Source: Owenia fusiformis (taxonomy: Eukaryota). Taken from it: a stretch of DNA of 64,000 nt. The stretch lies in assembly GCA_903813345.2 (NCBI GenBank), contig CAIIXF020000001.1, forward strand, positions 16,182,001 through 16,246,000. Reading direction: 5' to 3'. Made by a program: the position numbers and the translations under genes. Of the stretch, positions 17,601-42,500 are shown one piece after another. The notes below the pieces were generated by a model. The model was not told where the DNA came from, made no database searches, and was given only the letters and a program-made list of their open reading frames with translations. Numbering within the stretch: position 1 is the stretch's first letter; each line of letters opens with the position of its first letter.

Positions 17601-20600
17601 TGACCATTATCGGCTTCCAAGAGCATAAAGAGCTCGAAATCGCGATTCATTTCCTCCACATGTTCGTTGTGATCGTATTTGGCCGCCATTTTGTATGATT
17701 TGTTCACTAAAAACGACTTAAACAATGTTTAAATCGTTGAATTGAGAAATATTTTTCGAAACATCGCCATTTCTAGGTCAACAGGAAGTCCCCACGTAAG
17801 GACTAAATAAATCGGGCAATCTGATTGGATCATAAGACCGGCGGGAAAAAGTTAAGTTTTTGAAAGTTTAAATTCGACTGGAGTCGCCGGCAGTTGCCCG
17901 GGATTGTTAAGCACGGGCGACTACGCTCGCCGGTAGCATGCTAAAGGTTAAAGGTTTTCCATGAAAATATGAATTCCCTTTCAATTCATACTTCTTACAC
18001 TGCTTTTCCCACAAGCTCTACTATTAATGTCTCCAGGCACAAACAAAGCAGAGTATGACCATTGTCTACAAATGTTTCCAGGCATAAACAAAGCAGAGAA
18101 TGACCACTGCCTATAAATATTTCCAGGCACAAACAAAGCAGAATGTGACCACTGTTTAGATAACAAGAAGAAGAAATGTAAGTTCTGTGGCTGCCAGACA
18201 TGCGGTATTAAGAAGGATCTTGATAAGACATTACTATGTGATGAGTGTAATCTACCATACCACACATACTGTGTAGACCCACCTGTCAAACTAGAGGATA
18301 TACCTGAAGATGAAGACTGGTAAGAACTAAGTATATCGTGTCTTGAAGCAACTGATCGCTCATTACAGACTAAACATTACTTTGGAAGCAAAAGAGATAG
18401 CATATACCCGGAGTTGATAATACATGAAAAATTGCAGTTTCTAGCTATTAATCTAAATTGCTGATATAGGAGGAGCTGATGGGTGGATGTCAAAAATGAG
18501 GATTCGTAACAAAGAAATAATTGAATCTGTTTGATGAAATGCTTGGATCCAGAAAACCTCTGAATGTAAAAAATAAGAGGGGATAACCCCAAAGAAAAAT
18601 GCAAAGAATATGAATTATTCAAGACTCCCTCAATCATAATTTTCTGTAAAATTAAAAGGTACATGTATGTAAAATATATTGAATGTCAATGTCCAGGTAC
18701 TGCCCTGTTTGCCGCAATAACACAGATGAGGTTATCAAGGCAGGACAGAAGCTGAAAGAGAGCAAGAAGAAAGCTAAGATGGCATCTTCTACTACCACCT
18801 CAAACAGAGACTGGGGAAAGGTAAGCACCTCCTGTCATACTGCTTTTTGTGAGATTCGAAAGAAATGTCTCAAATTCTCAAGAAATGGATTCTAATCAGT
18901 GTTTACATATGTCCAAGTACACATACGAAATGAAACGATTTTTGTAAGATCTAAGAATCTTTTTTCTATGGATGAACCAATACCTGATGATGTGATATAT
19001 TCTTTGACTTGATAGAATTCAAGAGAATGACAGATATAGCAGGCATCTGTTTTACTTTGTGCATTAATTTTGTTATTTTAATTTTGCATAATTTAGGGTA
19101 TGGCTTGTGCCGGGCGTATGAAGATCTGCAACACCGTACCACCCAATCACTTTGGACCAATACCTGGGGTAGAGGTTGGAAGTACATGGAGGTTCAGACT
19201 TGGTGTAAGTTATCTCAATACCCTGTCACTGTTCTTTTATTTTTTTTGGGGAACACTGTTCAGTGATCTCCACAGGATTTTTTCTCAAATGGGTGCAATA
19301 TTCTCATTTTCATAATTCAGACCAAAATTGGTCAAAAACTGCCAATTTTTCATGATTTTTCTCATTTTCAAGTGGGTGCAAATGGATTTTCAGGTGGGTG
19401 CAAGCCTATTTCCAAAATCTCAGTTGGGTGCTGCGCCCACTTGCTTAACCCTTTCACGACGATAGGCTCCATATGGAGCCCTATTATGTTATACCTTTCA
19501 GGACGATAGGCTCCTTTTGGCACCATTATTTTTATTTATATACATCAATGAAATGACAATATCTCCAGTTCTATTCAGTATTTTTACACCAAATTTTGAC
19601 AAGTTGTTCTTATGTGATAATCCTTACTAAAAATTGTATATCAGTGATGAAATCCAAGGTATAGGTCCCAAGGCATAGGTATTTTGCAGTTTTCCCCTAA
19701 AAAACACTCTTACTTATCCGTCACTGGGGACAACATTTTCCTCTTATATTCACGTCGGGAAAGGGTTAAATACTAGTGAGATCGCTGATGATTACTCAGT
19801 AGGGCTGTGTACTTAAAAACTTTGCTTAAGGTTGCTCATAACAATGATTGAATCAGTGGACTCAATGATTCTTGAAATGAATTTGAGAAATTTTTGAAAT
19901 AAATATGTGATTTAATATTTTGACTTGCAGGCTAGTGAAGTTGGTATACATCGGCCCCATGTGGCAGGTATACATGGTAGAGATTCCGAAGGGGCCTACT
20001 CTGTGGTGCTAAGTGGTGGTTATGAGGATGACACAGTAAGTTTGTAATTCACTGATTTACACAGTAAGTTTGTAATTCACTGATTTACACAGTAAGTTTG
20101 TAATTCACTGATTTACACAGTAAGGTTGTAATTCAGCGATTTAATTATAATTTGATATGCACATTTTTTAATGTTAATAGCCTATCTGTCATTTCCATTT
20201 AAGATCTCTCAATTTTCAAGAAATTGGCAGTCTGGGTGTCGTGTAATTGTAAATATATATGGAACTCACTGCGGAAGGTAGATCAATTGTAAATTCCATG
20301 TTTGTAAAATATTTGAACATATGTGACCACAAAGTCAAAATAACAGATACACTACTGTATTTTTAAATGAATATATTTCTGCATGTAGGATAATGGGGAT
20401 GAGTTCTTCTACACTGGGAGTGGTGGTAGAGATCTTTCAGGAAACAAGAGGACAGCTGAACAGTCATGTGATCAGACCCTTACCAGAATGAACAGGTAAT
20501 CAGTTTACATTATCTGAGTATTTAAACATGGCAGTTAAACCTGTCAAGTTGAACACCTCAAGTATAACATCTTTTCTAAATTGGACACTTTATAGTCCAG

Positions 20601-23600
20601 TGGCCCTTTGACTTCATCTTAAACAGTCCTCTTTTAGTAGATAGTGTATAACCTAGGTCAGACACTTTTATGTGGGAACCAAGAGTGTTTCACTCACACA
20701 TGTTTAACTATGCTATCATTTGATATAAAAAATATAGAAAAGTTAAGGAAGCTACGAGTCCTGACTCCTTTAAAAAAACAATTTATCCAATGATGAAATA
20801 ATAGTTGTACGTTCAATCTATACTAGCGTTTTTTATGTCACCACTTTAAGTGGTGACAAATTGTTATAGTCTCCAACTTTTTTGTGGTCAGTGTCTGAAA
20901 CAAATGGTAGGTCATGACATTTTGCATGTTAATGCCTTGTCTTGATTTAGCACAGCATTCACCTGATTTGATGCCCAGGAGGTTGCTATGATTTTAACTT
21001 TATATTATTTCAAATCAAAAATCCCTGTTCTACTTGAACGTTCCATAGATTCTGACATTGTATTTATTTAATGTTTAGAGCCCTAGCGAGAAACTGTAAT
21101 GCTCCTATAGATGATAAGAAAGGTGCTGAAGCTAAAGACTGGCAGAAAGGAAAGCCCCTGCGTGTTGTTCGCAATGTTAAATGTGCTAAACATTCCAAGT
21201 ATGCACCTGAAGAGGGCAACAGATATGACGGCATATATAAGGTAGGTATTGTATGTAATGTGAGTGTATATTTAAGACAAGTAAAGACTCTGTACAATGT
21301 ATGGTAAAACCAGTGATCTCTCTTGTCAGCAGCTAGGTACTCTAAATTCCTTAAAACAGCATAATTATGCAAGCAATCTCAAAATTCTTAACACATTTTC
21401 TAACAGGGTACAAGGTTATTCCTTCATTTGTTAATTGAATTTTGAAAAAAATGTTGAAAATTTTTAATTTTATTTTAAAAGATGTACGGATGTGTATCCT
21501 AAAATATGTATGAGAAAAGGTTAAGATTATAAGAAAGTAAAAGAAAAATTTCTTACACCATATTGCTACCCAAGTATTATCTATTGCATGATTTACATTG
21601 TCACAGGTTGTTAAATACTGGCCAGCTAAGGGCAAGAAGGGATTCATTGTGTGGCGTTATCTTATGCGCCGTGATGATCCTGTACCAGCTCCATGGACTA
21701 AGGCAGGCAAGAAACGAATTGCAGAACTTGGCCTAACAATCCAGGTAATTATCCTCGTAACATCAAATTAAGCTATTTCCCATATTCCTTGTTGCATGGA
21801 AATCAATCATGATTCAACAGTTTTGATGCAAAGGTTTGTGGAAAATTGGAAAGTTTGATAGATTAATCGTAAGTACTCATTAGGTGCCCTCAGTTGACAT
21901 ATTTCTTTTCTAAGGAGTTGGGAGTTTTTTTAGCAAAAGTAATTCATTATTAGAGACAATTTAAACTGTTGCAGCATTGAAAACATTGGATATTGAGATG
22001 GGTTAGGGAAAGTGATAAATATTTCAAAATGGAGCATCATTGTCATGATTTGTTGTATATGTGCTCTTCCCTTCCAGTACCCTGAGGGATACCTTGAGGC
22101 CCAGGCTGAGAAAGAGAAACAGAAAGATGCAGAGAAAGGTGGCAAGGGCAAGGGAAAGCGTAAGAGAGGCAGTGACAGTGAGAGCAGTAGTGAAGGTATG
22201 ATCACCAATCACTAATGGTGTAATTTTTTTCATTAACATTTAAAGTACCCTTGTACATTGTTCAATAAAATACAGTAGGAAAATGAGTATTACATTATCG
22301 ACAAAAAGTTAAGGCACCATACTAACAGAACAAACATAATGTCTTCAAAGACATAGACATCTCTCGAAACAGTGCGATCCAGATATTTTCAAATGATAGT
22401 TCTGGTGTGTTCGAAGCTGTCTTCAGTGTACTTGACCACCAGCATACTCTGAAAAAGTATGTAATTTATCATAAATATTCCATATATTGGTCAAACTTTT
22501 ATTGGCTGTTTGTATGTTTCATGTAGATGAGCCTGCCAGTATTAATAAAAGCACCCCTAGTAAGGCAAGTACCCCTAAACGCAAGAAGGTTGCTGCTTAC
22601 AAGATCAATCCGGACACTGCTAAGCTAATTGCACAAGATGAACAGAACAAGAAGGTCTGGGATGAGGCAATGAAGTTTACCAAGGAAGGGGGACAGGTAG
22701 AGATCAATCTCATTTATCATTTCACTGAAAAAAATGAACACACAATCCAACCTATTTCATGACATGCTTACTTCCATTATTTTGAGTAATTGGCATTTCA
22801 TCACTAGAGAATTCCTCTTCAAATATGTATAATAGCTGGATGTAATACTTGGAACAGACCTTATCATCATTATAATCAATTATATGAAAGTTATTATTGA
22901 TTAATTTATGTTTACCGGATTGAAGATATGTGTATAAATCGATAATCTGTCAATTAGCATGAGTTGCAGTTAATATATGTATATAACATGTATGTTTGTT
23001 TTAGGTGTTCCTGCGTAAAGTGGAAGAAATGTTTGGCTGTATATGCTGTCAAGATATTGTATGTCGCCCCATCACTGTCAAGTGTTTGCACAACATATGC
23101 AAGGTAAACTATTCTGTAGTTGTTAGGAATTGTTCATTTGATCCAATCTAAGGTAGTTCTCTTGCTATAACAAGATGAAACAATAAACATGTGTTCTACT
23201 GTAAGTCTAAAATTGTGCTACATGTTTCACATAGATATCTATTTAATATACAATACTGTGTCTATGTGTAACTAATTATCTGGTTTGATTGCAGGAATTT
23301 ATACTGTTTGTGTATGCAGTTGCAAGAATGTATAATGTCTGTGTATGATTGCAGGAATGCATATTGTCTGTGTATGATTGCAGGAATGCATATTGTCTGT
23401 GTATGATTGCAGGAATGCATATTGTCTGTGTATTATTGTATGTTTGCAGGAATGTATACTGTGTATGGTGGCAATAATGTATCTCTGTTTATGGTTGCAA
23501 GAATTAAAATGTCTGATTGCATATTGTCTGTATGGTTGGATAATTTTATAATGTCTGTGTTTGTTTGCAGGACTGTCTGAGCAGGTCATTCAAGGCAGAG

Positions 23601-23717
23601 GTGTACAGTTGTCCTGCATGTAGGGAAGAACTTGGGAAGAACTACAGCATGGCAACCAACAAGCCCCTCACTGCCGCACTCCAGGCCCTCTTCCCAGGCT
23701 ATGAGAGTGGGCGCTAG
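8636..23717 (+). CDS. UHRF1: E3 ubiquitin ligase UHRF1 (UBL-TTD-PHD-SRA-RING). Exons: 8636-8788, 9110-9265, 10163-10261, 10518-10969, 16565-16780, 16948-17072, 18127-18319, 18697-18820, 19097-19204, 19931-20035, 20389-20495, 21079-21241, 21607-21744, 22078-22195, 22527-22696, 23005-23103, 23571-23717
   Basis: [10 protein letters not shown]...QRLFFRGKQ (UBL); GAWYEAEI and RGFWYDA (TTD); [14 protein letters not shown]...WYCPVC (PHD); [10 protein letters not shown]...VLSGGYEDD...[14 protein letters not shown]...[12 protein letters not shown] (SRA); CICCQ...HNICKDCL...CPACR (RING); ends LFPGYESGR*. All junctions are GT-AG and in phase. Confidence 0.97.
11030..11160. mobile_element. Short dispersed HINE-like repeat; further copies at about 20829-20942 and 47942-48073
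   Basis: Shared ttatgtcaccac...aacaaatggtaggtggtgacattttgcatgt(t)aatgccttgt in three places, with TT-rich ends and a subterminal inverted repeat. Confidence 0.65.
11709..11871. mobile_element. Small MITE (CAGGGGTTTCA ... TGAAACCCCTG)
   Basis: 11-bp perfect terminal inverted repeat. Confidence 0.5.
12143..13359. mobile_element. hAT-like MITE (TAGGGC.GTG ends) interrupted by a HINE-like element at 12406-13271 carrying about 150-165-bp tandem repeats
   Basis: Outer TIR tagggccgtgaca / tggcacagcccta. Inner element tttttatcacaccc ... gggtgcgat ... cttgtt, with repeated units aatcttgtct...ggccattttggattt. Confidence 0.6.
14061..16123. mobile_element. Helentron-associated (HINE/DINE-1-like) element with a satellite-like core of about 3.2 x ~600-bp units
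   Basis: 5' TTTTT, subterminal IR atcgcactttgaa (14066) / ttcaaagtgcgat (16089), (GGGC)n microsatellite, unit starts near 14146/14751/15356/15954, 3' cttgtt. Confidence 0.75.
17246..17947. mobile_element. piggyBac-like non-autonomous element with TTAA TSD
   Basis: ttaa|ccttctgcatgcta ... tagcatgctaaagg|ttaa. Confidence 0.75.
18032..18156 (+). repeat. 3 x 45-bp tandem repeat spanning the UHRF1 exon 7 splice acceptor
   Basis: tccag|gcacaaacaaagcaga...gacca.tg, with units starting at 18037, 18082 and 18127. Confidence 0.9.
19449..19765. mobile_element. piggyBac-like MITE with TTAA TSD, nested in an older CAGTGATCTC...GAGATCGCTG element (19261-19787)
   Basis: ttaa|ccctttcacgacg ... cgtcgggaaaggg|ttaa. 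Confidence 0.8.
20031..20142 (+). repeat. 4 x 28-bp tandem repeat spanning the UHRF1 exon 10 splice donor
   Basis: (acaca|gtaagtttgtaattcactgattt)x4. Confidence 0.92.
23280..23580 (+). repeat. About 29-bp minisatellite built from the UHRF1 last-exon acceptor
   Basis: Units tgtatgattgcag|gaatgcatattgtctg, ending in the real acceptor gtttgtttgcag|gactgtctg. Confidence 0.85.
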
Positions 23718-26700
23718 GCAACTCACTCACAGGATACAAGAATAGGCGCTAGGCATGCTTGTCAACCAACACATGGTGTACACTCTAAGTAGATACTATG
23801 TCAAGCTTTACATGCTGTCAATCTTGCTAAGAGGCAATTGTGTAAAACTTAGGAATGATCCAAATCCTTGAATATGTGGACTGAGATAAAGAATTAATAT
23901 ATGACAGTAATGCTTATCTGAAGAACTAGGCCTGGATGAAAGGTTATTAGGAAGAATCAGAGACACTACGTGCGGAAGATAAAATGCTACTTTGCTAATA
24001 TGTGCCGCTATATAGACTGATAGAGACCTAGATGAATGTGAAATGTGACTTTGTAGAATGTTTATTAATTCTGCATTAATGGAATTACATTTTTCGTGCC
24101 AATATCCCTTACATAGCCTTCATGTAACATTCGAGAAGTTTTTATTAAAATATTTTTTGAAACTGAATTTTTTGAAGTTCAATGTCAACTGAAAAGATAT
24201 ACCCGTTACATATTGAAGTTTGGAATAGTGAGAATCGTGCTATTCATTGTTCAAGCATTAACTTTTTCATTGTTCAATTTGTCATTATTAACTATTTATC
24301 TTATGAATTATGTATTTTATTTGTTTCCATTACTATTTTATACTAATAACCAGGGATTTCTCAAAATATTTTTAATGAAATTCTTCAATGTTATGGTGTG
24401 TCATTGTATGATATCATAGTCTAGAACAATAGATCAATAATTTTTAATTTCGAATGCTTTAAGAAAAGTACCCCATATAATTCAAATGCCATGATTAGTA
24501 TTAGAGTGAAAAAAGCATTAATTCAATGAATATTATGTTGTACCAATGTGTGTTACATAACATGATATGACAAAATTTATGTATCGAGAGGTAATTTCTC
24601 AAAAATATGAATTAAGATTATTAATATTCAATAATGTAACATATATTTACCAATATTAACATCAAGGAAGACAAATGTGATTCCAGCAAATGTGTTACAA
24701 TTTTTTCAAAAAATTAAATGCAAATGCAATATTCTTGTCGAATTGAAATCCAGTTGAGAATAATGTAATAATGAATCAGACTCAATCAGCAGGATATGCA
24801 CAAAGAGAGATTGGTAAGAATTCAGTGAAAAATTGCGCACAAACTGAGAAAAATAACTGCTCATATACAAAACTGCACAGTGCTTTTGCATACAACCTGT
24901 TTGTTGATGTGTAAATGTCCTCAGTAGTTATGTGAAAAGGAACATGCTAAAGTTAGTTCAGTTGTTTTTTGTCATTGCGATATAACTGGATATTAGTTGA
25001 GGGGTTATAGGTGTTGCTATGGCAACCATATGCTTCTTTGTTATCGATTTGTATGTAATACGCTCAGCAATTGATGAATGCTTCTTATCAATCGGGTTTC
25101 TACAGGCTCAATTTTACATTAACAACATTAAATGTTTAATAAAAAGACTGTGTGTAAGGGTGTCAATTTGTTTGTAATTTCAAATTGTAAGAGTTGAAAA
25201 TACCCAAATCAGAGTAATTATGAACTAGTTTCAGAGAATTTGTAGAGGCCTGATTAATAAGATTTAATATGAAGTACTTAGAGGCAGTGATGTATGTAAT
25301 AAATGTTATAGATTTAGAAAATGTATATTGTAAATAATTCTTATACGTCCAACAACTGACCAACAAGATGCTGTAACCATAAAAACACGATATGTTTGCA
25401 TGTTTAAGTATTAAATTGTGTTTCTGATGTGTTCCATAGAATTAATATGTTATTTTTGTAAGTCATTTGAAAAGGATGTTAGCCATATGTATTTTTTACT
25501 ATATTTTGTATACAGTAGTTTTTATAGCAGTTACTCATTTGTTTGTTGAATACGAAGGAATATCTTCAACATTCTATTGTTGCTGATAAAATTAAAAATT
25601 GTGACAAAATAGATTTTCATTAGGAGTTAATTTTAATGATTTTTTGAAAGTCTAAAATTTTGTATATATATCTAGGTCATTAAGAATCTAATATCTGTTT
25701 TTTTAAATGTTAGGTATGTAACTTTGCTTGTTTAAAATTTATGTGACAATAGGAAATCTGCAGTAGACTTATGAATTGAAGAATTGAATCAAGTACAGTA
25801 AAACCCATCCAATCAGAATGCTACTGGGACCAACCCAAAGTGTTCAAATTGACAGGTGTTCACATTCTATGTTCTATGAGATTAAAAAAAATGACAGAAA
25901 AGTGTTCACTTGTAGAGGTGTTCAGACTAGGGAAGTGTTCAGCTATACAAGTTTTGTTGTACCAAGTATAGATCTGGGATAAATATAATATTAGATATTT
26001 TAATCCCAGATATAGCAGTATATATATATGTTCAGGAGGCCCCTCAATTGTGTTCATGTTGCCATGAAAGGCTTATTATATATTAATCACTTGTAGATGA
26101 AATTCTGAAGTTATTGTTATGCAAATGTATGTAACAATGCACAAATAGTCTACTAATAAAATATACAAAACATATTCTATGTATTCTGTATTGTATTTCA
26201 TTTTCTTTTATAAGAATTTTGTTGATAGGTCTCAATCACTGAGGCACAAATTGTTAAGGGGTCACTTCAAAACATGCCGTAATCCCAACTCAATATTGGT
26301 CAAAGTTTCTGAAAATCAGTGAATGTGACTTTGTAACCTTTTACCCATTCCCAAACCTCAAAATGTTGGTTTGCACATGTGTTAAGTGGCGACCCCCTGC
26401 TATTTAAAGTAGGTGTTCTTTGTTTCAAATGCTGTTAGTATTTTGCAATTTTATCAAGGATATAACCGGAGTTTGACGAGAATCAAATTTTGACGCTTAC
26501 TCTAGGTAAACACAATCCCCTTTTATGTTACCCTGATTCAATAGTTCACAAGGGAAGTTTTTAAGTTTTTTTCAGGTATTATATAAGTAAATCATATCTG
26601 CCAACCTAAGACCAAAATTTTGTGGTAGATTTTTTTAAAATTGCTGTATTTTAAGAGTTTGGTTAACTAAAAAAATCATGGCAGAAAGCATTCCTTCAAG

Positions 26701-26856
26701 TGGCAGTCCAAACACCAACTGCCACTTGAAGGAATTCTTTCTGCCATGATTTTTGTAGTTAACCAAACCCTTTTGTACACAGATCTTTATTCCGAATGCA
26801 ACAAAAATATGACACGCCAGCTTACTTAGATAAATACGCAATATCCTGATAACCAC

Positions 26857-27549: not shown

Positions 27550-30500
27550 TTATTTTTTACTTTCTTCAGTTTTTTCTCCACCAAGTGGTGATTTTAATAC
27601 TTCATCAATAAGTCCAAATTCTTTAGCCTCATCTGGACTCATAAATCTGTCCCTTTCTAAATTCTTCTCTGAAAATAAAGCATGTGACATTAGATAAGAT
27701 TACATCAGTAGTAATAGGGGTGGAGGGCTATAGCTTTGTCTAGATATTTGTCAGGACTTCCTTCACATACAGTTGGCTCAACTGAATTACATTAGTTAGT
27801 TCATCATGATCTGAAAGCTGGGATGCTAGAAAGGTTGCATACTTTACATCATATTTCATTAGCTGAGATAGAGAGGTAAACTCCTTTACCTATTAAATCA
27901 AGAGGTTGAGATTTTCTTTATACACGAAGGTTGAGAGGTATGTTTTCTCTTGTCTATTATATCAAAACGTTCAGGGATGGGTTGATATTTTTCTCACTAT
28001 TATTTCAAGGGGTTGAGAGATGATTTCCCTAACTGGTATATCAAGGGGTTGAGAGGTATGATATCCCTTACCAGTATATAAAGGGGTTGAGATATATGAT
28101 ATTGAATGATTTCCCTTACTATTAAATCAAGGGGCTGAGAGGTATGATTTCCCTAACTAGTATATCAAGGGGTTGAGAGGTATGATATCCCTTACTAGTA
28201 TATAAAGGGGTTGAGATATAATATGATATTGTATGATTCCCTTACTATTAAATCAAGGGGTGAGAGGTATGATTTTCTTTGCCTATTATATCTAGGGGTT
28301 GAGAAGTATGATTTCCTTACCAGTATATAAAGGGGTTGAGATATATGATATTGTATGATTTCCCTTACTATTAAATCAAGGGGTAAGTGAGAGGTATGGT
28401 TTCCCTTACTATTAAATCAAGGGGTTGAGAGGTATGATTTCCCCAACTAGTATATCAAGGGGTTGAGAAGTATGATTTCCTTACCTATTGTTTCAAGAGG
28501 TTGAGAGGTATGTTTAACATAGAGTTGATTTATTTGTTTTTTCATCTTAAGAATCTCCTCAGCCTGTATCTGTATATCTGTTGCTTGACCCTGCAAAAAC
28601 AATTGAGAATAATCAATGAAGTTTTTACATTAAAATACGTTTTGTAATTTGACATTTGAGTAGACGTAAAGTGATGATATTAAATCCCAATTAATGGTCA
28701 AGTTATTGTACCATTCAAGTAAAACAGAAAAATATTTTGCCTGAGAAGGTCTCAAGGTACAGAACTTACAGCTGTCTGGCTGCCAATGGCAATCTTTTCA
28801 CTCTTGCCAATGAACTTGGAAAAATGAGTTGCCTATTGGACAGTGGACTCAATTCCAATATTTTAATTAGACAATCATGTTTTCAACTTTTAGTCATGAA
28901 CCTTGGAAGGTCCGTATATCATGTCGGCACCATCTTCTGAGGGTACAATATTTTCAGTATTTCCAATTTCCATGGCATACAGTTTTATAATTGTTTTTCA
29001 AAATTCTATTAGAAGTCATAACAGGTGATATGATGGTGTCAATAGAAAATGACATCACTTGAACTAATCAGATCACTGGGAATTTCACAATCTTTGAATA
29101 ATATATCATATCACTCATTCAATGAATGGGAACATTAAGTGAAATTCTTGCATTTAAGGTACAGCTGGAAAATAACATTTTAGGAAAAATTGCTATACCT
29201 GTACATGAAGGCATGTGTAATTTCCTTGCTTTTTCAGGAAAGTATCATTACATTGTCTTCTTTTAGTAAATCTGGTAAAAGTTCAATGGTCCCGAACTCC
29301 AGGAAATTCTGATTTTTCACACTTTCTATTTTTCCAAATTTTCTTTCAAAGTTCCCAGACAACACAGGAGCCACCTGTTGTTTTTGCTCCTTTCTACCAA
29401 TTCTTGAGAATGAAATAAAATGTCTTTCCGAACCTTGTAGGAACAAAATAGCATGTACGACATGTTTTTAGACCTCTCAATATTATAGTTATACAAAGGA
29501 TTTTTGGTTGATTTTAAAAAAGTATTCAAAAAATTAAAACAAAATCCCCCCAAAATAGATAAAAATCAAGATAAACCTTTTATTTCATTAACAAGATACT
29601 TTTTTAAAATCAACCAAAATTTCCTTTGTGCAATTACAATATTGAGAGACCTAAACATGTTGTGTTTATGTCGTTTTGCTCCAATGAGGTTCGGAAAGAT
29701 GTTTCATTTCACTCTGGAAACATGATACAAAGAACAAAAGAAGTGTTTGATGTGTTAAAAACAATATAGATGAAAGTATATATGATACGACGTCAGATAC
29801 TGTACATCACGGCGTAACAGTGTAATTGTTCATTTTACCGACAAAATGCAAAGATTTACGCGATAAATATGCGCAATGCTCCTCCAAGTAATTGCAAACG
29901 TTTTAATATTCGTGGAATCTTCTTAAAAACTTCAAGTTTTGTTCAGATTAATGTGCGCTTCAATACAATTCTATATTCAAAAAGGTTGTGTCACGATATA
30001 CAGAATTAGAATCACCAGAAAGTAGACATTTCAAACCCTACCCGTTTTCTTCTTTGTCGCGCTTTTCGGCCCTGCGCTCTCGTTGTCGCACCGTCTTTCT
30101 AGACTCTTTCACAATGCCCCTTGTCATATTCAACAGATAAACACAGACGGGAACATATTAAGGATTGTTAAATGCATTATTTGTAATTTATTTTAACTCG
30201 AATATTTAGTTTTATTTATTTAAAGCAATGAATAATAAAGGAGAACATATAATACGCTAACGGCGTAACGTCTTATTTTGTAAAGGCTTCACTTGGGGTT
30301 GCGGTGATAAAACGATGTCTATCTCAATATAGAACTGGTTCAAATTAAATGAAATTAATTGTATGTAGTAAGGGGTATATTTAAAAGAACATGCTGAAAC
30401 ATCGGAAAGTTTTGAATGTTTATCCCTTAATTAGAAATATTTGAACTCAAAAAATGAAACGTAATTTTGTGAATTTTTCACATGGCTTCACTTCATATTT

Positions 30501-33500
30501 CTTTCAATATATACTTCTTACAGACTGAATTTTAATCGAAATGATATAGTTTTTTGATAAAAATATAGAATATGATATGCCCTTCAGGAATCAAAAAAAG
30601 AATAATTCACCTTTCAAACGATTTAATGTTTAATTGATCAAAACATATATCTTGTTTTTTGAAATTCTGCCTGTCGACACTTTTTGTGCATAAATATAAG
30701 CGTTAAGTTAGCATTGTTATATTATGACGTCATCACACAGAATCTGTTTGTCTTTTCCAAAATGGTGCATTTAAATATTGCGAAAATTTGAGAAAGATCC
30801 GTTGGGAAATGAAAAAGTTATCTTCATTTTTCGTTTAAAATTAAAATCACTTTTCTTCAAAATGTTACAGTCGACACCCGGTTTTAGCATAGAAAGTCGC
30901 ATAATACGGCTTGCGTGATTCTCATTTAAAAAGTCCCAAATCAGTTATTTGGAATTCTGATAGGCAAAATATTTCATGGACATACGTGTTCAACTGATGA
31001 CGAAAAATTGTAGAAAAATATGATTTTGCTGTCGAGATATTGCGGTTTTAAAAGTAAGTACGCATTAAAAATGCAGTAAAATGCCGCGATGTACAGTATC
31101 TGACGTTGTATCATATATATTTTTCAAATTATATTGTTACCATTCAAAAGATGACCATTAAATTGACGATGTGTTAAATTTTTAGATTTTTTCATGACTG
31201 GTTTAAGAGAAACGTGTGTTCAAAAAGTTCTCCACTCCTTTATTGATCTTAACATTTATTGTAACTAGAAACTTTGAATTATATTGATGTTATACTCTTA
31301 GCTATATCTGTTGTTCTCAGTGCATTATTGATCTGTTTTTAACTAGGCAGGGATCCTTAAAAAGAGATAACTTCTGTTCTCCTTGCATACTTTTATCTAG
31401 CAGTGCCTCGGGAGAATACCACAGAATGTTACAGTATATAGTAGTTTGTTCCTGAAATATGAGTGGATGAAACTGCTCCACCTTCATGTGAAATACATCA
31501 TAACAAGTAATGTATTTTCTAATGATATAAATACAACACAATGCAATATCGCTGTCAAGGAAATAGTGATTGATTTTGGTGTTTTTACCTTTTATAAAAA
31601 TGTCAAAATAATTATTATCCATAATGATTTCCTATAATCAGTAAAGCTTATTGATAAGTATTATTGGTAGCATTGTGAAAGGGCTGAATAGATATTTCTC
31701 CTCTAAGTTTGGAACATTTTTGTTTTGTTAATACTAGTCAGCATGGGTTTCAGAGTTATGACTAATGAAAGAATATGCCTTGTCAAGGACAGAGCTTTCG
31801 AGAATAAATAGAGATTTTCCTATATGAGGTTCAGGATATTGGGATTATCCCGAGCCCAATATAATATATCCGCCCGAGGGCTGTAGGTCCCGAAGGTAGA
31901 TATATAGAGATTATCCTATATGAGGTTCAGGATATTGGGATTATCCCGAGGCCAATAGGTCCCGAGGGAAGATATATTATATTGGCCAAGGGATAATCCC
32001 AATATCCTGAACCGACTATAGGATGATCTGTTTATCCCATACCAATCACATTGTTCAATTGTTGCAACCAATCGTGGAATTATTTTAAAATATTCATGTC
32101 CAGTTTTTTATTCTTGTCCGTAGCCGGATTTTCCTGTTCAAATATTTGATTATTAACGGGGCATACTGCTCCTTCCCTTCTCTAAAGCATCAAACAGATC
32201 GCGATCGATTGTTTGCGTTTTTCTCCATTGTCGTTTACAGTATGCGAACGTTACAAAAAAGAACCAATACGGGAACAGCGATTATGACGTAGCGGGCAGA
32301 TATACTATATCTGCCCGCTTGGAGCGGGACGTAAAGCTATATCTGCCCGCTGATGAAGATATAAGTTTTTACAAACCGACTTTATGTACCCGTAACACGT
32401 CCAAGTATGGGATAAATTATATTGTCCAAGGGATAATCCATATATCCTGACCCGACTATAGGATAATCTGTTTATCCCATACCTATCTTGGTCATCTGGT
32501 TCATATTGTTCAATTGGCCAGAGTTCAGAAAATATCCAACCGGCAACTGTGGTTTTGAAAATGAACCAATATGCGAATGGTGATAATGATGGAGCGAGCA
32601 GATATAGTATATCTGCCAGCTACGTCATAATCGCAGTTCGCAAATTGGTTCATTTTTTGTAACGTTCGCATGATAACTGTAAACAACAATGGAGAAAAAC
32701 GCAGACAATCGCAATCTGTTCGATGGGAAGGAGCATCCTGTTATAGTGTTAATGATCAAAAATTAGAGAAAATAAATGTGGATGAATAAAATACTGAAAG
32801 AACAGGAAAATGCGGCCATGGCCAAGAAAACAAAACCACCCTTGGTATACGCAGCTAACGAAAATTGACCGGTACGGGTCAAAAGCTGGACCGGTACGGG
32901 TTAACGGTTTTATTTGAATTTAAAACAGCCATAACTTGCTCAATATTGACTTCCTCGTGTCTAATTTGAAATATATGATGCCTCCCGATGCTTTTAAGTA
33001 CCCCAATTTTTTACAGATTTTTAAACGGACCAAAACTCTCTAAATGCGCATTTATGCTCTTTTCTCTCGAGAACGACTGTCTCATTTTCACGATAACTTT
33101 TATTTAGTACTTCTAACATATAAGATCTATTTTCCCCCATCAAGGAATGATGTAAATGACATGCTATTTACATCTTGTGAGTTTCAATGACGCGCATCTG
33201 ATTTTATAAAAAATGCCAAACTTTGTGACAAAGAATTTCCTCCTGCTTGCAGCGAGAAGACGGACCGGTTCGGGGCAATCTGCTTGTAGCGAGAAGACGG
33301 ACCGGTTCGGGGCAATAGCTGATGAAATTCTTTGTCACAAAGTTTGGCATTTTTTATAAAATCAAACGCGCGTCATTGAAACTCACAAGATGTAAATAGC
33401 ATGTCATTTACATCATACCTTGATGGGGAAAAATAGATCGTATATGTTAGAAGTACTAAATAAAAGTTATCGTGAAAATGAGACAGTCGTTCTCGAGAGA

Positions 33501-36500
33501 AAAGAGCATAAATGCGCATTTAGAGAGCTTTGGTCCGTTTAAAAATCTGTAAAAAATTGGGGTACTTAAAAGCATCGGGAGGCATCATATATTTCAAATT
33601 AGACACGAGGAAGTCAATATTGAGCAAGTTATGGCTATTTTAAATTCAAATAAAATAGTTAACCCGTACCGGTCCAGCTTTTGACCCGTACCGGTCAATT
33701 TTCGTTAGCTGCGTATACCAAGGGTGAAAACTAGACATGAATATTCTAAACTATTTCCACAGTTGGTTGAACTTTCTGAACTGTGAGATGACCAAGATTG
33801 GTATGGGATAAACAGATGCAGGATATAGGGATTATCCTTTGGGCAATATAATATATCTACCCTCGGGACCTACGTCCCTCAGGCAGATATATTATATTGG
33901 CCTCAGAATAATCCCAATATCCTGAACCTCATATAGGATAATCTCTATGTATACATATGTAATGGAGCAAAATAAGCAAGATGAATATTGAAATGTGGCA
34001 CACCTGCGTGGGAACCTCTCGATCTTGAGTGTCATGCCTTACTGCAATAAAATCTCAAGCATGATAAGCTGTATTGTTAGTACCTCAGTGTGAATACTCG
34101 CATCTGATTGGTCAATTAGCGGTCAACATTTTTGCCTGTACCCCACATGTGCATCATGGGATATCATATTGTTGACCGCATTTGTTACTGTACTACACTT
34201 GTGAATTATGGGAATATGACGTCATGATGTTCAAAGAAAAACATGGCAGACTGACGTTTTTAAACATTGATGAATGTGATATTTTGACTTTGTTACTAGA
34301 CAATAAGGATAGCCAAAATACAAAGAGAAACATAGAATTAACATTAACTATACTTAATGAGTATGCAGTGAAGTGCTGAAAATAGAGAATTTAGCTACCC
34401 CTTCCTACTTCAGATGCGCGATTCGAACCAGGAGAAAAATAGTGAAATGTACAAAATAAGACTTTTCAAATGCTAAAATGGGGCATTGCACGAACAATTC
34501 GTAGATTAAAAAGTAGATGAGGTTACCCCGCGAACACTTGAAATAATCAAACAATATTTTCATTGATCGATGATTGTCGTCTACAAGTGTGTTATTAGTT
34601 TCTTCTGACTAACAAAACAATTGTAGACCTCTTCATTCAGTCAACCGACAAAATCATATACCTCGACTGTAAACCTTGAAACTACTGTTGACCTTGACCT
34701 TCGGTCTCTGTCAACAGTAGTTTCTCAGTTTACAGTCTCGGTATACAATTTTGCCAGTTGACCTCTGGAGAGGTCAACAATTGTATACTGTAGAAGCAAC
34801 CTGGTTACCAAGTTCATTACAGAAATCTATGGGGGTCCTCTATGGCATTAAGTATCACAATGCAATTAAATAGGGTAAACATGAGATTTAAAAGCTCAAT
34901 ATAATAGGGGATCAATTGAAAGAGGTTATTAGCCTATTTGATATTCCAGATCAAATGAATTCTGTTAATTTTTCAACATTTTCTTTTGTATGTTGGGGAG
35001 ATGCATCAAACTTGGACGTTTGGGATTACTTCATTGTAGGGCTATTTTGTCGCTGTAGGATTATTTTGACCATGGATTCATATTTCCAGGGTCAGCCATC
35101 TTGGATTAAAATCTCGCCAATTGGAGATTTTGATTTATTTTGAAAAAACAAAACATGGCAGACTGTGAATTTAAAATATAAGCCAATGTCAAAATAGCCC
35201 CATGGTCGAAGTAGGCCAACGATGAAGTAACCCCATACAGCAAAGTTTGACGCATATCCCCTAAAGCTAAGACACTTACAGCAGCTTGGCCTGATGGTTG
35301 GTGTATCATCACCCTTGAGTTTGGTAAAGAATGTCTCATCCCAGGCTCCCCTGCGCACAGGAGGAGTGATCCCATACTGCATGCCTGCCCCACGCACCAT
35401 GTAGCAATTGGTGGCAGGACATATTGCATTGTGTCATATATTCCTAAGCCTGCGGTCACAGAGCCACCTGCAAATATTATGAACAACAATATACATGTAC
35501 ATGAAGTTAAATGTAAAATCAATCTAGTTACAGCTTGTAATGGCTTGTATCAAGAGCCCGAATAAGAGTTCCTCTTTGAAAACAAGCAATTTGATATTCT
35601 TGTTTGGGAAAAAGGTGGTTTAAATGTGTTCTCTGGTTTAGATTTTCCCCTGATGGTGCCATGATATTTTTTTAATCTACATTCTAAAGTAGCCTGCTAA
35701 CAACTGAATTGGCTGCTTTTTATTTTACCGAAGTTGATTTGAGAATTACACCAATAGAAGTTATAACATGTATGAATCTATAAATATTGATGAAAACAGC
35801 AATCGACAAAAGTTACCTCATAGGAAACTATATGTTTGAGAGCAATAGCCTTGTAAAACCAATAAAAAATCGGTAACCAGAAACTTTGTCTTTTAAGACC
35901 GGTGATCAAAGACAATCGTTGAAGATGAAAGAACCCAGACAACTGATATGCTAATATTCTCTTTCGAGTCATTCTCAAAATTATGAATCTTGCAGAGTAA
36001 ATTGGCAAATCAAAACAAAAAAATGGGAAGGAAATGGGTTCAACTGTTGATACTAGACATTTGTGTGTTATTAACATATGCAGAAGTAATAAACATTAAT
36101 TATGAGAGGGTTGAGAACATTACGAGGATTGGAACAATATTTGAAACTATGACCGTAAATGGTGATTACACAGAATGTATGTTTGCTTGTGTTCGACGCA
36201 ATGTGTCATGTGTGGCATTTACTGTACGTACAGACGATGGAGTAACATTTTGTGACCTGAATACTGAGATGATTTGGGATGACCCTCCTGTTGAAATGAA
36301 CAATAGTGACCACTATGTCAGAAGTAAGTACAGTAAAACCTGTCTATGTAGAACACCTTTGGTACCTCTAAAAAATGTTCCACTTGGGAGGTGTTCTCAC
36401 GGGGTACCATCGAAATATTTTGGCAGAGAACGACATTTTACTAAGAAATGGCAATAATTTAGCACAATATATTTTTTAACTAGAGTTCTACTTTGATTTT

Positions 36501-39500
36501 GACAAAAGTAAGTATTCCATGCAATGGCTATTTCATTCATGAGTTTGTAGGAATTCTGTTGGAACCCAGTTCTGATCAAGTACGAAGTTATTGAAATCGG
36601 CGCAGTTGGACTTTACTCCGAAAGATGGTTTTTCGATTATAACTTTTTACAACATTTAAGTATAGACTTTTGAAAATAAATACAGAATAGTCCTTATATT
36701 ATTGAATGATTCTGTTATTTCTGATTCACACGGCTCTGATTTGTTTAATTAAAAAAAAGTTTTAAAAATATTACTTAGGAACGTAACCGGAGTTGGGAAC
36801 GTAACCGGAAATGAACAATAGTGACCACTATGTCAGAAGTAAGTACAGTAAAACCTGTCTATGTAGAACACCTTTGGTACCTCTAAAAAATGTTCCACTT
36901 GGGAGGTGTTCTCACGGGGTACCATCGAATAATTTTGGCAACGTACCGGAGAACGACATTTTACTAAGAAATGGCAATAATTTAGCACAATATATTTTTT
37001 AACTAGAGTTCTACTTTGATTTTGACAAAAGTAAGTATTCCATGCAATGGCTATTTCATTCATGAGTTTGTAGGAATTCTGTTGGAACCCAGTTCTGATC
37101 AAGTACGAAGTTATTGAAATCGGCGCAGTCGGACTTTACTCCGAAAGATGGTTTTTCGATTATAACTTTTTACAACATTTAAGTATAGACTTTTGAAAAA
37201 AGTACAGAATAGTCCTTATACTATTGAATGATTCTGTTATTTCTGATTCACACGGCTCTGATTTGTTTAATTAAAAAAAGTTTTAAAAATATTACTTAGG
37301 AACGTAACCGGAGTTGGGAACGTAACCGGAGCAGATCTAGATCAGTTGAATTATATAATTTAAAAAAATAAAATATATGATTTAAAGCATATATATTAAT
37401 AAATACGCATTCGAACAATCCCGTATGTTTTTAAATTAGTATATGTGCTTTAAATCATATATTTTAATTTTTTTGATTAAATAATTCAACTGATCTGCTC
37501 CGGTTACGTTCCCAGCTCCGGTTACGTTCCTAAGTAATATTTTTAAAACTTTTTTTTTAATTAAACAAATCAGAGTCGTGTGAATCAGAAATAACAGAAT
37601 TATTCAAAAGTATAAGGACTATTCTGTACTTTTTTCAAAAGTTTATACTTAAATGTTGTGAAAAGTTATAATCGAAAAACCATCTTTTGGAGTAAAGTCC
37701 GTCTGTGCCGATTTCAATAACTTCGTACTTGATCAGAACTGGGTTCCAACAGAATTCCTACAAACTCATGAATGAAATAGTTATTGCATGGAATACTTAC
37801 TTTTGTCAAAATCAAAATAGAACTCTAGTTAAAAAATATATTGTGCTAAATTATTGCCATTTCTTAGTAAAATGTCGTTCTCCGGTACGTTGCCAAAATT
37901 ATTCGATGGTACCCCGTGGTTCTACTAATAGAGATTCATATAACATTAAGTCAGTCCTCAGATTCGGAAGTGTTCTACTTACAGAGGTTTTCCACTTAAA
38001 AGGTTTGACTGTACTTGTCTTAAAATGTTGAAAATCATGGCGGAGAATTATCCATTTCATTTTATTTATTTATTTTTTAATTGGATTTTTACACCTCAAA
38101 TAAAAACTCGCCTGTTGCCTGGTAAAATCTTGCTAACAAGATTTTACAAGAATTGAGGGAAGAATCAGAAAAAAATCAAAACTTGTCCAATATATGACCG
38201 AAAATCCATAACATTTTCACAAGAATGATGGTTCCCATCAAAATCGGTCATTCTAATCGTACAGTTTGTGTCACTTTACTTTTCCGAAGGCAGTAAAGCT
38301 CAGTATCGATACCCCATCACCCCCAAAATTGATTGATTGAGTTTCTAAACTGACATTGATCTTTTGATGCCTTTTATTAATTACATTTTAATAGGCAATG
38401 TGTTCAAAAGCTGTTTCTTCAATTTGAATATTTTGGGTTTTGAAATCTGTGCTCAGAATCAGCATGTATTTTGAATTTATATCAATTTGAGCAATGAGTA
38501 ATACTTGCATTGCAGGGTTTGAGTGCCAGAACGGAGGAACACGAATACTAGGCAGTTGTCAATGTGTTAATGGTTACTATGGCAACCGTTGTGAATTCAT
38601 CATAAAAGGTAGTTGTTATTTCTACTAAACATTCAAAAAGGAAACAATACTGTATAAGTGGTATTTAATATGAATGGTTAATTTGCCGAATGGTCAAATT
38701 TTATCATTCTCCTAATTTCAATTTTCCTAATGATATCCATTGGATAACATTATGAAGATAATATCTCTGACATTTAATTTTCCTAACCTGGCAAAAATTA
38801 GGCAATAGACAAATTAAATGATTAGGCAAAATTACCATTTATACAGTATAGCAAATCAGCTTTAAAATTGGTCATCACTTTGTTGTCTTATTTCAGATTG
38901 TACTGAGATGAAACTATATATTAAAAAGAATAGTGGATATTTCTGGGCACAACTGGCAGGGTTTGATAACCCTTACCAAATATTCTGTTCCCATACTTTG
39001 ATGAGGGTCTACCTTAAAAATCGGTTCTATGATGCTACTCTCTATAACCTCACCTGGCAACAGTACAAACAAGGGTACAACGAAACCCCCTTAGTGAACT
39101 CTTTTATTGGCCTTGATAACCTGCACAAGCTTACCACAAATCGAGCACATGAACTCCAGGTAAGTCACCCTAAATATTCACTGCAGACTGCATGAGTGAT
39201 GATCCCACAATGTACTTTGACTTTTACTGGGCAAAAGTAAACAACTTAGTGTATTTATTACATGTACATGTAAATAATAAGAACCATTCTGTATCCTTCA
39301 TATATATTAACTAAATGGTTATTTTGTTTAGGTGCTTTTACAGCCTTGTTTTCATATATATTAACTAAATGGTATATATTATGGTTAGGTGCGTTACAGC
39401 CTTGTTTTCATATATATTAACTAAATGGTATATACTATGGTTAGGTGCGTTACAGCCTTGTTTTCATATATATTAACTAAATGGTATATATTATGTTTAG

Positions 39501-42500
39501 GTGCGTACACAGCTTTGTTTTCATATCTTAACTAAATGGTATATATTATGTTTATGTGCGTACACAGCTTTGTTTTCATATACAAGTATTAACTAAATGG
39601 TATATATTTTGTTTAGGTGCGTATACAGCCTTGTTTTGGGGGTCTCTGTCCGGTCTATTTGTACTACTTTGCTAGTATCAATGTTTCTTCGGAGTCTGAT
39701 GGATATCAACTGAACATTGGGCCAATCAGTTCACAACGTTGCGCAAATCACCACTGCCCAAATGATACAGTATGGGAACCATATGCTAAATCTGCTAATC
39801 CACTTGAAGCAATGAATGGGATGAAGTTCTCTACAGTGGATGTTGATAACGACATATCCAACAGCACACACTGTGCAGAAGAGTATGGAGGGGGATGGTG
39901 GTATAAGGACTGTGCACGATGTGGAATGAATGCTACTGACATCATACCTACATATCCAGGCACAGAGCATATATGTTTACCAGAGGTTATATACAAGACA
40001 TGCTCACATCCCTACTGTCAGCGTGTAAAAGTAACATTATATATTAAGATAAATTAAGTATATCCCAAGATAAGATGGTCAATTTTGAACATATCTCACC
40101 ATGCATCTGTATGGCAAACAACTATTTGGGAAGCATGGATCCAATGCGAGTAAAGTTATTATATGGAGCTTGAAATTGTCCTTTGTGGTAATTTAAGCAA
40201 TTCAGAGCATAGTGAACATCTTGAATAATGGATTTGAAACAATTGTACGTACATTGGAATGCATTTAAAGGGCCATTCCTTGCCAGACCATTTCTCTCTT
40301 GATATGGTAGCTATAACCATATACATGTACATATACTCGTATATATGTGGTATATAATTATATATATACATTCCATGTTAAGCAAAATAGATGCGACTAG
40401 ATGCGAGTAGATATAATCTTGATTTATGTCATTAAATATTCAAAATTCAGTCAAAGTGATATCATATTTGAAATCTACAAGTAAAAGTACATCTAGAAAT
40501 ATGGTTTTTTTGAAAATGTGATTTCCAGTTTGGGGAGATTCCCCATAGGGCCCATGTTATAAACACAGGCTGATATCGAAAGATTTGTCCGCTGTGACGG
40601 AGCATGCTATTTTTCATAAAAACACTAAGAATGCTTCACGATTTATTTTTTAACTCATATGTTTCGTTATATCAAAGATAATTGCTTACTCCATGCAATG
40701 GATATATCATTTGCGTGTAACCTTCATAGTTATGCTGAAACTGTGTGTAAATATTATCGTGTCACTATATCGTGCCATTAGAAAGTTAAACAAGAAATGG
40801 TACATTTTGAAGTATGATACTCCAGCGCCATTTTCAATAGCTTTTCTTCCCAGCGTAATTGGACTTCAAACAGAAGTGAAAGTTACCCGCAAATGATATA
40901 TCCATTGCATGGAGTAAGTAATTTTGTATGGTATAACGAAACATATGAGTTAAAAAATAAATCGTGAAGTATTCTTAGTGATTTATGAAAAATAGCATGC
41001 TCCGTCACAGCGGACAAATATTTCGATACCAGCCTGTGATAAAATCACAAAAAATTAAATATCTTTTCTTGTGTTGGACAGATAACATTTTCTTTAGCTG
41101 GACATATTTTGATTTGCATAAGTATTAGATACATGATGGTGATATGAAAATTGAACCGCTAAAACAGATGAATATTAAGTTTAAGGGAACTTTCTCCTAT
41201 ACCCGCCATGCTATCTGACCCGAAAGAGCCACCTGGTGGTGAGACTGGTAACTACCTACTCGCATCTGAGTCATTGTAGTGCTCATTTCCAGTAAGCTGC
41301 CATCTTTTAAGCTTTCATACATAAAATGATGTCATCGATTCTCATCTTGTATAACCTTGTCTATAACAGCATAGGAAAGTAGCACAAAATCACTTCTAGA
41401 CAAGTGGTGCTTACTTTCTGAGCAAAGATATTTTCAGGGCTTGTCAACTTAGAAGAAGAGATTTTCAGAAGGATGAAATCTTTATATGAAGCCTTTAACA
41501 GTTTAAGTAAACTTATTCTTAAAAATGTATACATGTGTGTATACAGGGTGTTCCGAGGGTATGGTATCCCCCATAGGCAGACCTATACCATTGTCTCCAT
41601 AGTATGTGTCAAATATCATTTTAAGCTAATCCAAAGTTACATTGATTTGCCAAGTATCATGGTTCAACTCAAATGGGAAAAAGTTATAGGCATTTTAAAA
41701 CTTAGTGTTTGGTGAAAATTGAAGTTCAGTTCAGTATCCTGAAAAAAAACCTGACCTGAATGTGACCAAAAATATGGGTGCTATCGTCAAAGATAGAATG
41801 GATAGAGTCGGGAAAAGAGAATGGTAAAGGCAGATACTCCAATGGAACTCTTCTAAAATGCCTTAAAAAGGTTTTATGAGGATTACAAAACCCCACACCC
41901 CTATTTGAACTGGTTTAAGGACATGTCTGAAAAGAATTGCTACTGTGAATATGGCCAAGGGACACACACACTTTTAATTTGGTGTAAAACTGAACTTAAA
42001 TTTTGGCCAAACACCTAATTTCAAAATACCTGTAACCTTTTCCCATTTTTCCCATTTGTAAGTTGAACCATGATACTTGGTCAAATCAATGTAGCTTTAG
42101 ATAAGCTTTATAATGATATATGACACATACTATGGAGACATTGGTATATGTCTACCCAAGCGGGACCCATACTTTTGGGACACTCTGTAGATATTGGTTG
42201 GTACATGTTGACTAACCTGGACTATTTATGTACATGTGTATAGGTTTTCTGTCACTGTCTGACTGTAGGAAGAGCAGCTGAGCAACCACTAGACTTGCAG
42301 TGTCATCTGTTATCTAAAAAAGTGTATGACGATTAAGTCCACTGTTAAACAATATGCACTATGTGGCAGGTCAGGAGTAATACCCCATAGCATCTCTTTT
42401 AACAAAAGTGATGCTTGAAAACCATGTATCATCTCAAAATCAACTTTTTGCATCTTTTTTAAAACTTATTTTAGAGTGATAAAATGTGAATTTGATATGT

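What the first reader, a model, noticed from the sequence alone, without database searches (positions are those of the whole stretch)
18032..39637. Recurrent tandem amplification of splice sites: six exon junctions in three genes
Most non-transposon minisatellites in this window are made of an exon/intron junction. They are the UHRF1 exon 7 acceptor (3x45), exon 10 donor (4x28) and last acceptor (about 29-bp units), the CLPP exon 5 donor (about 15 units), the FReD exon 4 acceptor (6x57), and the FReD exon 1 donor (515-bp duplication). In each case the array runs into the intron and keeps multiple intact GT or AG sites. The exon-proximal copy is the one giving the conserved protein, and the decoys I translated (UHRF1 exons 7 and 10, FReD exon 4 unit 2) hit premature stops. 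Possible readings: a junction-focused duplication mechanism, length-tunable unproductive-splicing (NMD) control, raw material for intron gain, or survivor bias under strict exon definition.
Basis: partly seen in the sequence, partly recalled or inferred. Interest (0 to 1): 0.8.

Follow-up and report, generated by a model that had tools for sequence, protein, structure and literature searches.

The report
Splice-junction "mirage" minisatellites in an annelid
Short pieces spanning exon borders have been copied head to tail into the neighbouring introns of a marine worm's genes, a repeat type already known from lancelets and a few human genes that looks harmless here but is common and modestly over-represented at exon borders.

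Summary
Five of the six features are real junction-spanning minisatellites (UHRF1 x3, CLPP, FReD exon 4). The sixth, the 515-bp FReD duplication, is mostly the arm of a high-copy foldback transposon. They are 'mirages', described in amphioxus, with human donor-side cases (F7, ABCA7); this scan noted them before in this genome and others. Spliced contigs from four runs use the exon-proximal sites at UHRF1 and CLPP; rare decoy use is untested. New here is a count in 766 dynein and myosin introns of the same genome (most likely Owenia fusiformis): 29 of 1,532 junctions carry such an array (15 donors, 14 acceptors). About 60% of that number is expected by chance. Units of 25 bp or more show a 2.2-fold excess (1.3-3.5), rising with unit length, but it leans on three genes and the cut-off was chosen after looking. 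Decoys are as strong as real sites and drift without coding constraint. Real-versus-decoy differences are often synonymous, like two alleles, though this did not replicate cleanly. Best reading: neutral duplications tolerated because splicing takes the exon-proximal copy, possibly seeded by recombination in exon DNA. NMD tuning is unlikely.

The parts
8636..23717 (+). UHRF1 gene, 17 coding exons, 890 aa
   Evidence: Exon chain with GT-AG introns gives one open frame; PHD domain in exon 7; several joints seen in spliced contigs
18026..18160 (+). Acceptor mirage of UHRF1 exon 7: 3 x 45 bp (11 intron + 34 exon nt); real exon starts at 18127
   Evidence: contig pieces begin at 18127 in 4 of 4 runs; single place in the genome
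20031..20143 (+). Donor mirage of UHRF1 exon 10: 4 x 28 bp (5 exon + 23 intron nt); real cut after 20035
   Evidence: joint 20035-20389 in 4 of 4 runs
23265..23575 (+). Acceptor mirage of the last UHRF1 exon: about 29-bp units, degenerate near the real site at 23571
   Evidence: (family D6); contig pieces begin at 23569 in 2 of 4 runs as listed
27880..28513 (-). Donor mirage of a CLPP exon: about 15 units of 36-51 bp, higher-order 126-bp period; most decoy donors decayed or shifted by one base
   Evidence: joint 27668-28485 in 4 of 4 runs
28485..28590 (-). CLPP exon whose 3' end seeds the array
   Evidence: Translation; joints on both sides; neighbouring exon matches PF00574
36053..40057 (+). 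Fibrinogen-related gene nested antisense in a CLPP intron; four exons give an open 355-aa frame
   Evidence: PF00147 in exons 3 and 4
36293..37330 (+). 515-bp direct duplication carrying 31 exon nt and a second donor (after 36838); mostly a transposon arm, not a minisatellite
36394..37930 (.). High-copy foldback/MITE-like element: two direct arm copies and one inverted arm
   Evidence: Sequence; 39 further matches listed among 40 scored of 2,662 candidates
39297..39637 (+). Acceptor mirage of FReD exon 4 (last exon): six 55-61-bp units; real exon starts at 39617
   Evidence: outside the stretch on which runs were laid

Best explanation
These are 'mirage' minisatellites: ordinary local tandem duplications whose unit contains one splice junction. 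(1, shown) A unit of about 30-260 bp holding an exon edge and one splice site is duplicated and expanded. (2, shown for the major transcripts of UHRF1 and CLPP in other individuals; inferred genome-wide) Splicing uses the copy continuous with the rest of the exon, the first donor or the last acceptor, so all other copies leave with the intron. (3, inferred) Duplications wholly inside exons are purged, so junction-spanning ones are the visible survivors of duplication in exon DNA. (4, shown) The decoys then drift without coding constraint and without a purge of GT/AG. (5, partly shown) Long units are 2-3 fold over-represented at junctions and are exon-rich. I infer that this comes from exon DNA, not from the splice signal: most likely unequal exchange or template switching between alleles in exons, which are the best-matching islands between polymorphic homologues, helped by longer visibility of a repeat with one copy held fixed by selection.
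For: Exon-proximal use in spliced contigs of 4 runs from 3 studies. Frequency 29 of 1,532 junctions in 13 of 29 regions, 15 donors and 14 acceptors, too common for each to be harmful. Best decoy within 0.5 bit of the real site in 22 of 25 arrays; GT/AG kept in 135 of 142 decoys outside CLPP (CLPP corrected). Variants private to decoys fall on third codon positions in 28 of 80 cases, as for neutral drift. Excess: units of 25 bp or more 28 of 82 against 17.1 expected (P=0.002), 40 bp or more 25 of 46 against 13.4 (P=2e-4); units of 10-24 bp 2 of 89 against 4.9; multiplier rises 1.8-fold per doubling of unit length (P=0.03); held-out second-tier introns give 8 of 18 against 4.4 for 40 bp or more (P=0.044). 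More than half of the unit is exon in 21 of 29 (P=0.012). Real-versus-decoy differences synonymous in 21 of 27 in the first sample against 0.43 expected if both copies simply drift (P=2e-4). Amphioxus mirages do not disturb splicing and vary between haplotypes (PMC3087553, passages).
Against: All periods pooled show no clear excess (22 of 144 against 16.9, P=0.10; 30 of 199 against 23.6, P=0.09), and the length cut-offs were chosen after seeing the first data. Without the three richest genes the excess is not significant (14 of 60 against 11.9, P=0.28; 12 of 30 against 8.9, P=0.13). The synonymous bias did not replicate in the second tier (13 of 28, P=0.42) and is absent from the window's own arrays (2 of 9); later allelic recombination of the real exon explains it as well as an inter-allelic origin. 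The contigs come from individuals that may lack the arrays, drop rare forms, and only 15 of 167 joints were shown. Only two gene families were sampled.
Confidence: 0.62

Rival explanations
1. Pure chance plus survivor geometry: short introns (median about 330 nt) and abundant tandem repeats make junction overlap common, and there is no real excess.
For: About 60% of the observed junction arrays are expected by random placement (17.1 of 28). No excess with all periods pooled or after removing three genes.
Against: The excess sits in arrays of 4 or more copies and 90% or more identity, not in old ones.
Confidence: 0.2
2. A dedicated junction-focused mechanism: the spliceosome, R-loops or chromatin marks at exon borders direct duplication to splice sites.
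For: Excess of long units at junctions; some arrays abut a junction within 15 nt (12 of 144 against 8.1 expected).
Against: Breakpoints show no fixed offset: 3-119 exon nt per unit. The excess is modest, patchy among genes and absent for short units. The abutting excess is small.
Confidence: 0.08
3. Length-tunable unproductive splicing: decoy use sends transcripts to NMD in proportion to copy number.
For: Nearest decoy gives a frameshift or stop in 23 of 25 arrays and 8 of 9 more. In human ABCA7 a one-unit retention isoform with a premature stop exists (PMC5954066, passages).
Against: Stops and frameshifts are the default for such inserts; no frame preference. Two of five window arrays lie in last introns. 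CLPP donors are decaying. Arrays are young, scattered and occur in axonemal dyneins and myosins, with no shared regulatory logic. No decoy joint among the 15 best-supported joints shown.
Confidence: 0.06
4. The arrays matter mainly as raw material for new introns or mutually exclusive exons.
For: Model proposed for amphioxus globins (PMC3087553, passages). The genome holds whole-exon tandem clusters in a myosin and a dynein gene. Some units hold most of an exon (90 of 111 nt).
Against: Each unit has only one splice site; decoy exon parts drift neutrally; no gained intron was seen. This is a possible consequence, not a cause.
Confidence: 0.1
5. Assembly artefact.
For: No DNA run was available to confirm the arrays (one search listed none on record as DNA).
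Against: Copies differ from each other (81-100% mean identity to the real unit, private substitutions and indels), and CLPP has a higher-order period.
Confidence: 0.03

Closest known systems
Amphioxus 'mirage' minisatellites (Adh3, globins BflGb6 and BflGb9, troponin C, PGBD5). Seen: passages of PMC3087553 and PMC3902484; the original Adh3 paper was not available.
   Same: Tandem units spanning an exon-intron boundary, at both donors and acceptors, units 10-160 bp, many but not all keeping GT/AG, normal splicing apparently undisturbed, origin stated as unclear.
   Different: Here in an annelid, and counted across 766 introns against a null. The amphioxus reports are single-gene cases. Haplotype and somatic length variation, shown in amphioxus, was not testable here.
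Human F7 intron 7 37-bp VNTR and similar donor-side cases (IFI6, CBS, LMNB2, PDGF as listed there). Seen: abstract and Introduction of PMC1557585.
   Same: First unit spans the donor; identical pseudo-donors follow; only or mainly the most upstream is used.
   Different: Those are all donor arrays, explained by 5'-to-3' scanning. Half of the arrays here are acceptors, where the last copy is used, which first-come scanning does not explain.
Human ABCA7 intron 18 VNTR. Seen: passages of PMC5954066.
   Same: Unit begins at the donor; use of the next unit adds a frameshift.
   Different: There, decoy use and length-dependent splicing were measured; here neither was shown.
Internal tandem repeats at exon-intron boundaries in human segmental duplications. 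Seen: passages of PMC2812944.
   Same: Minisatellites, with longer units than average, at exon-intron boundaries.
   Different: Those change gene structure or create introns in young paralogues; here the protein of old conserved genes is unchanged.

Membership tests
Mirage minisatellites | Head-to-tail units that span an exon-intron boundary | tested here: met
   Five window arrays; 29 more in sampled genes
Mirage minisatellites | Occur at both donors and acceptors; many but not all copies keep GT/AG | tested here: met
   2 donor and 3 acceptor arrays in the window; 15 and 14 in the sample; 135 of 142 decoys intact outside CLPP
Mirage minisatellites | Regular splicing is not disturbed | tested here: inconclusive
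   Major spliced contigs use the real sites at UHRF1 and CLPP, but they come from other individuals and drop rare forms; FReD not assessed
Mirage minisatellites | Length instability between haplotypes | not testable with these tools
   No DNA run listed; one genomic match for the exon 7 array
Mirage minisatellites | Homogenised inner units with divergent edge units | tested here: met
   Seen directly in UHRF1 exon 10, UHRF1 last acceptor and FReD exon 4 (families D6, D11, D12); no tree built
Mirage minisatellites (FReD exon 1, 515-bp duplication) | Locus-specific minisatellite unit | tested here: not met
   About 415 bp are a dispersed high-copy element arm
Tandem exon duplication / mutually exclusive exons | Unit holds a whole exon with both splice sites and is under coding constraint | tested here: not met
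   Exon part shorter than the exon in 19 of 19 first-tier arrays with a known exon length; decoy-private changes neutral
Transposon-derived or Introner-like repeats | Unit dispersed elsewhere in the genome | tested here: not met
   No match for the five window arrays in about 0.85 Mb of other fetched DNA; genome search for the exon 7 array gives 1 match. One of 20 first-tier arrays was flagged by the mask
ABCA7-type splicing VNTR (regulatory) | Decoy use detectable and dependent on array length | not testable with these tools
   Only assembled contigs, no raw reads or genotypes

The most novel reading that the evidence does not exclude
Mirages are a genome-wide mutational signature of recombination between highly polymorphic homologues: exons are the islands where strand exchange can form, template switches there duplicate exon edges using the other allele, and an exon-definition rule that picks the last of many identical acceptors lets thousands persist. 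This would explain why they recur in lancelets, this annelid and (per unchecked scan notes) sea urchins, and give a natural library for 3' splice-site choice.
Probability: 0.28. Interest if true: 0.7.

Novelty: new member of a known kind. Interest (0 to 1): 0.4.

Why it matters
The class has been an anecdote from single genes with its origin called unclear. About 3.8 such arrays per 100 introns means any genome like this holds thousands, which can mislead gene prediction and read mapping. Half are acceptor arrays whose upstream decoys are as strong as the real site and inherit the original intron, so they are ready-made tests of how the last of several identical 3' splice sites is chosen. The unit-length dependence and allele-like differences give the origin question a concrete, testable form. 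As a locus, the window itself adds only more examples.

Tried and rejected
No RNA holder on record was listed; the four runs laid are guessed RNA or unlabelled contigs, so rare decoy use, levels and strand could not be read. FReD exon 1 had almost no cover in these runs, which says nothing about expression. A search for a second haplotype of the exon 7 array found one match only. GC preference as the cause of the excess: interior arrays have 33.3% GC against 32.4% background (P=0.35), rejected. Frame selection on unit length: not seen. Purge or special conservation of decoy GT/AG: not seen outside CLPP. Rows dropped: two dynein introns around a spurious 23-nt exon inside an array; 18 arrays flagged as dispersed repeats in the masked runs, with unmasked runs also given. 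In one search the CLPP site was off by one base, corrected; the FReD exons were out of frame, corrected. Thirty kinase loci were used only for the repeat mask. A heterozygosity figure for the species was not found in the passages read (10.1101/2022.02.05.479245), so high polymorphism rests on contig-versus-assembly differences and recall. Literature: seven searches showed no genome-scale count or enrichment test of mirages and no report in annelids; most subscription papers are not held and no supplements were read, so one may exist.
Full report
Setting. The window lies in a 499.5-Mb genome with about 12 large contigs. A myosin locus of this genome is 99% identical to a protein named Owenia fusiformis, so the organism is most likely that annelid. 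The finding covers UHRF1 (plus strand), CLPP (minus strand) and a fibrinogen-related gene nested in a CLPP intron.

Observation. Five arrays are real and each unit holds one splice junction: UHRF1 exon 7 acceptor (3x45), exon 10 donor (4x28), last acceptor (about 29-bp units), a CLPP donor (about 15 units) and the FReD exon 4 acceptor (6 units). The exon-proximal copy gives the conserved protein. The decoys of UHRF1 exons 7 and 10 and of FReD exon 4 give early stops. Two corrections: most CLPP decoy donors are decayed or shifted, and the 515-bp FReD duplication is largely the arm of a high-copy foldback element, so it belongs with transposon-linked rearrangements.

Splicing. Contigs of four runs from three studies, guessed RNA or unlabelled, join exons at GT-AG. 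They use 20035-20389 and 27668-28485 in 4 of 4 runs, begin exon 7 at 18127 in 4 of 4, and begin the last exon at 23569 in the 2 runs where that piece is listed. No decoy joint is among the 15 joints shown; 152 were not shown, contigs drop rare forms, and these individuals may not carry the arrays.

Is it more than chance? I fetched 15 dynein heavy-chain regions of 40 kb and 14 myosin regions, annotated them by spliced alignment to homologues (scripts 32-36, 52), and kept 560 confident introns after dropping 2. The null collapses each array to one unit and places it at random, junction-spanning or wholly intronic. All units of 10 bp or more: 22 of 144 span a junction against 16.9 (P=0.10). Units of 10-24 bp: 2 of 89 against 4.9. 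Units of 25 bp or more: 20 of 55 against 12.0 (P=0.006). Units of 40 bp or more: 18 of 32 against 9.6 (P=0.001). The cut-offs were chosen after looking; a trend test gives 1.8-fold per doubling of unit length (P=0.03). Masking dispersed repeats, limiting intron length and conditioning on the host intron keep the result; removing the richest gene weakens it (9 of 18 against 6.2, P=0.10). A held-out set of 206 less certain introns gave 8 of 18 against 4.4 (P=0.044) for 40 bp or more and 9 of 32 against 5.7 (P=0.09) for 25 bp or more. Pooled, 29 of 1,532 junctions carry an array, in 13 of 29 regions; the multiplier is 2.2 (1.3-3.5) for 25 bp or more and 3.3 (1.8-6.1) for 40 bp or more, falling to 1.3 and 1.7, not significant, without the three richest genes. 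So the phenomenon is widespread, chance explains about 60% of it, and a modest excess for long units is likely but not secure. The window, at about 10% of junctions, is a rich patch like the richest dynein gene.

Anatomy of the decoys. The best decoy scores within 0.5 bit of the real site in 22 of 25 arrays, 10 of 13 at acceptors. Donor and acceptor arrays are equally common (15 and 14). In acceptor arrays the original intron lies ahead of the first decoy, yet the last copy makes the protein; at UHRF1 exon 7 the real AG has only 11 intron-derived bases before exon-derived sequence. This argues by inference for exon definition, pairing each site with the nearest partner across the exon. Changes private to decoys are spread evenly over codon positions (28 of 80 third), so decoys are not under coding selection. 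Differences between the real exon part and the decoy consensus were synonymous in 21 of 27 first-tier cases against 0.43 expected if both copies drift (P=2e-4), in 13 of 28 second-tier cases (P=0.42; one diverged array gives 9 of the 15 non-synonymous changes) and in 2 of 9 window cases; pooled sample 34 of 55, P=0.004. Contigs from other individuals differ from the assembly by 0-3 bases per exon of 110-192 nt, the same order. Young arrays thus often look like two functional alleles side by side, which fits an inter-allelic origin or later allelic turnover of the real exon; I cannot tell these apart. Units are exon-rich (21 of 29 over half, P=0.012) with no fixed breakpoint offset.

Mechanism. 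Most likely neutral tandem duplication and expansion, tolerated through exon-proximal site choice, with fully exonic duplications purged. The long-unit excess is best put down to exon DNA: recombination between polymorphic homologues acting in exons (inferred; inter-allelic processes drive most human minisatellite mutation per the abstract start of PMC2599865 in the listing), plus longer visibility of repeats with one copy fixed by selection (my estimate, about 1.4-fold). A splice-signal-directed mechanism and NMD tuning are less likely for the reasons given under the rivals.

Known relatives. The class is the amphioxus 'mirage' (PMC3087553 and PMC3902484, passages), with human donor-side cases F7 (PMC1557585, abstract and Introduction) and ABCA7 (PMC5954066, passages), and boundary repeats in human paralogues (PMC2812944, passages). 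PMC10078293 (passages) catalogues human repeats tied to splicing but gave no such test in the passages seen. The term reached me through earlier scan notes on this genome, which also report cases in other invertebrates (unchecked). Seven paper searches showed no genome-scale count or enrichment test.

Verdict. A new member of a known kind. The locus is ordinary for this genome; the added value is the rate, the length-dependent excess and a testable idea about origin. Interest 0.4.

Noticed in passing
G000:C9:37986009-37994334 (minus): About 12 tandem copies of one myosin-head exon (PF00063 positions about 18-84), probably a large mutually exclusive exon cluster in a muscle myosin heavy chain gene.
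   Followed up: no
G000:C9:7082562-7087388 (plus), L035-L037: Three copies of a dynein AAA1 exon (PF12774 positions about 56-164), a possible mutually exclusive exon set in an axonemal dynein.
   Followed up: no
L142 (G000:C4:24495001-24505000), intron at local 2336-4030: One myosin intron is almost filled by a donor array (83 bp x 7) followed by an acceptor array (91 bp x 12); a nearby intron has a 260-bp x 4 acceptor array.
   Followed up: partly
L089-L092 (G000:C4:3085001-3125000): One dynein gene holds 8 junction arrays in 32 confident introns, while three others with 29-53 introns hold none: a strong local difference in rate.
   Followed up: partly
dynein and myosin regions: Twelve arrays start or end within 15 nt of a junction without spanning it, including one beginning exactly at the GT and several repeating the pyrimidine tract without the AG.
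   Followed up: partly
window 36053-40057 within 35470-44310: The fibrinogen-related gene (N-terminal domain, EGF-like exon, fibrinogen C domain) is nested antisense in a CLPP intron region.
   Followed up: partly
window 5369-7726 (plus): A 786-aa open reverse-transcriptase frame of a non-LTR retrotransposon (identity by recalled motifs) just upstream of UHRF1.
   Followed up: no
window 53097-55136 (minus): A single-exon 680-aa RING/B-box/coiled-coil/NHL-like frame (domains by eye), apparently inside an intron of a plus-strand gene.
   Followed up: no
window 14114-16085 and 12464-12942: UHRF1 intron 4 holds a 605-bp x 3 higher-order repeat with 145-bp subunits and a 147/162-bp repeat; both unit types recur in dynein introns, so they are dispersed elements.
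   Followed up: partly
window about 31830-33940: A roughly 2-kb nested inverted-repeat structure centred on a 37-bp x 2 repeat at 33243-33316, with very high contig depth: a foldback element.
   Followed up: no
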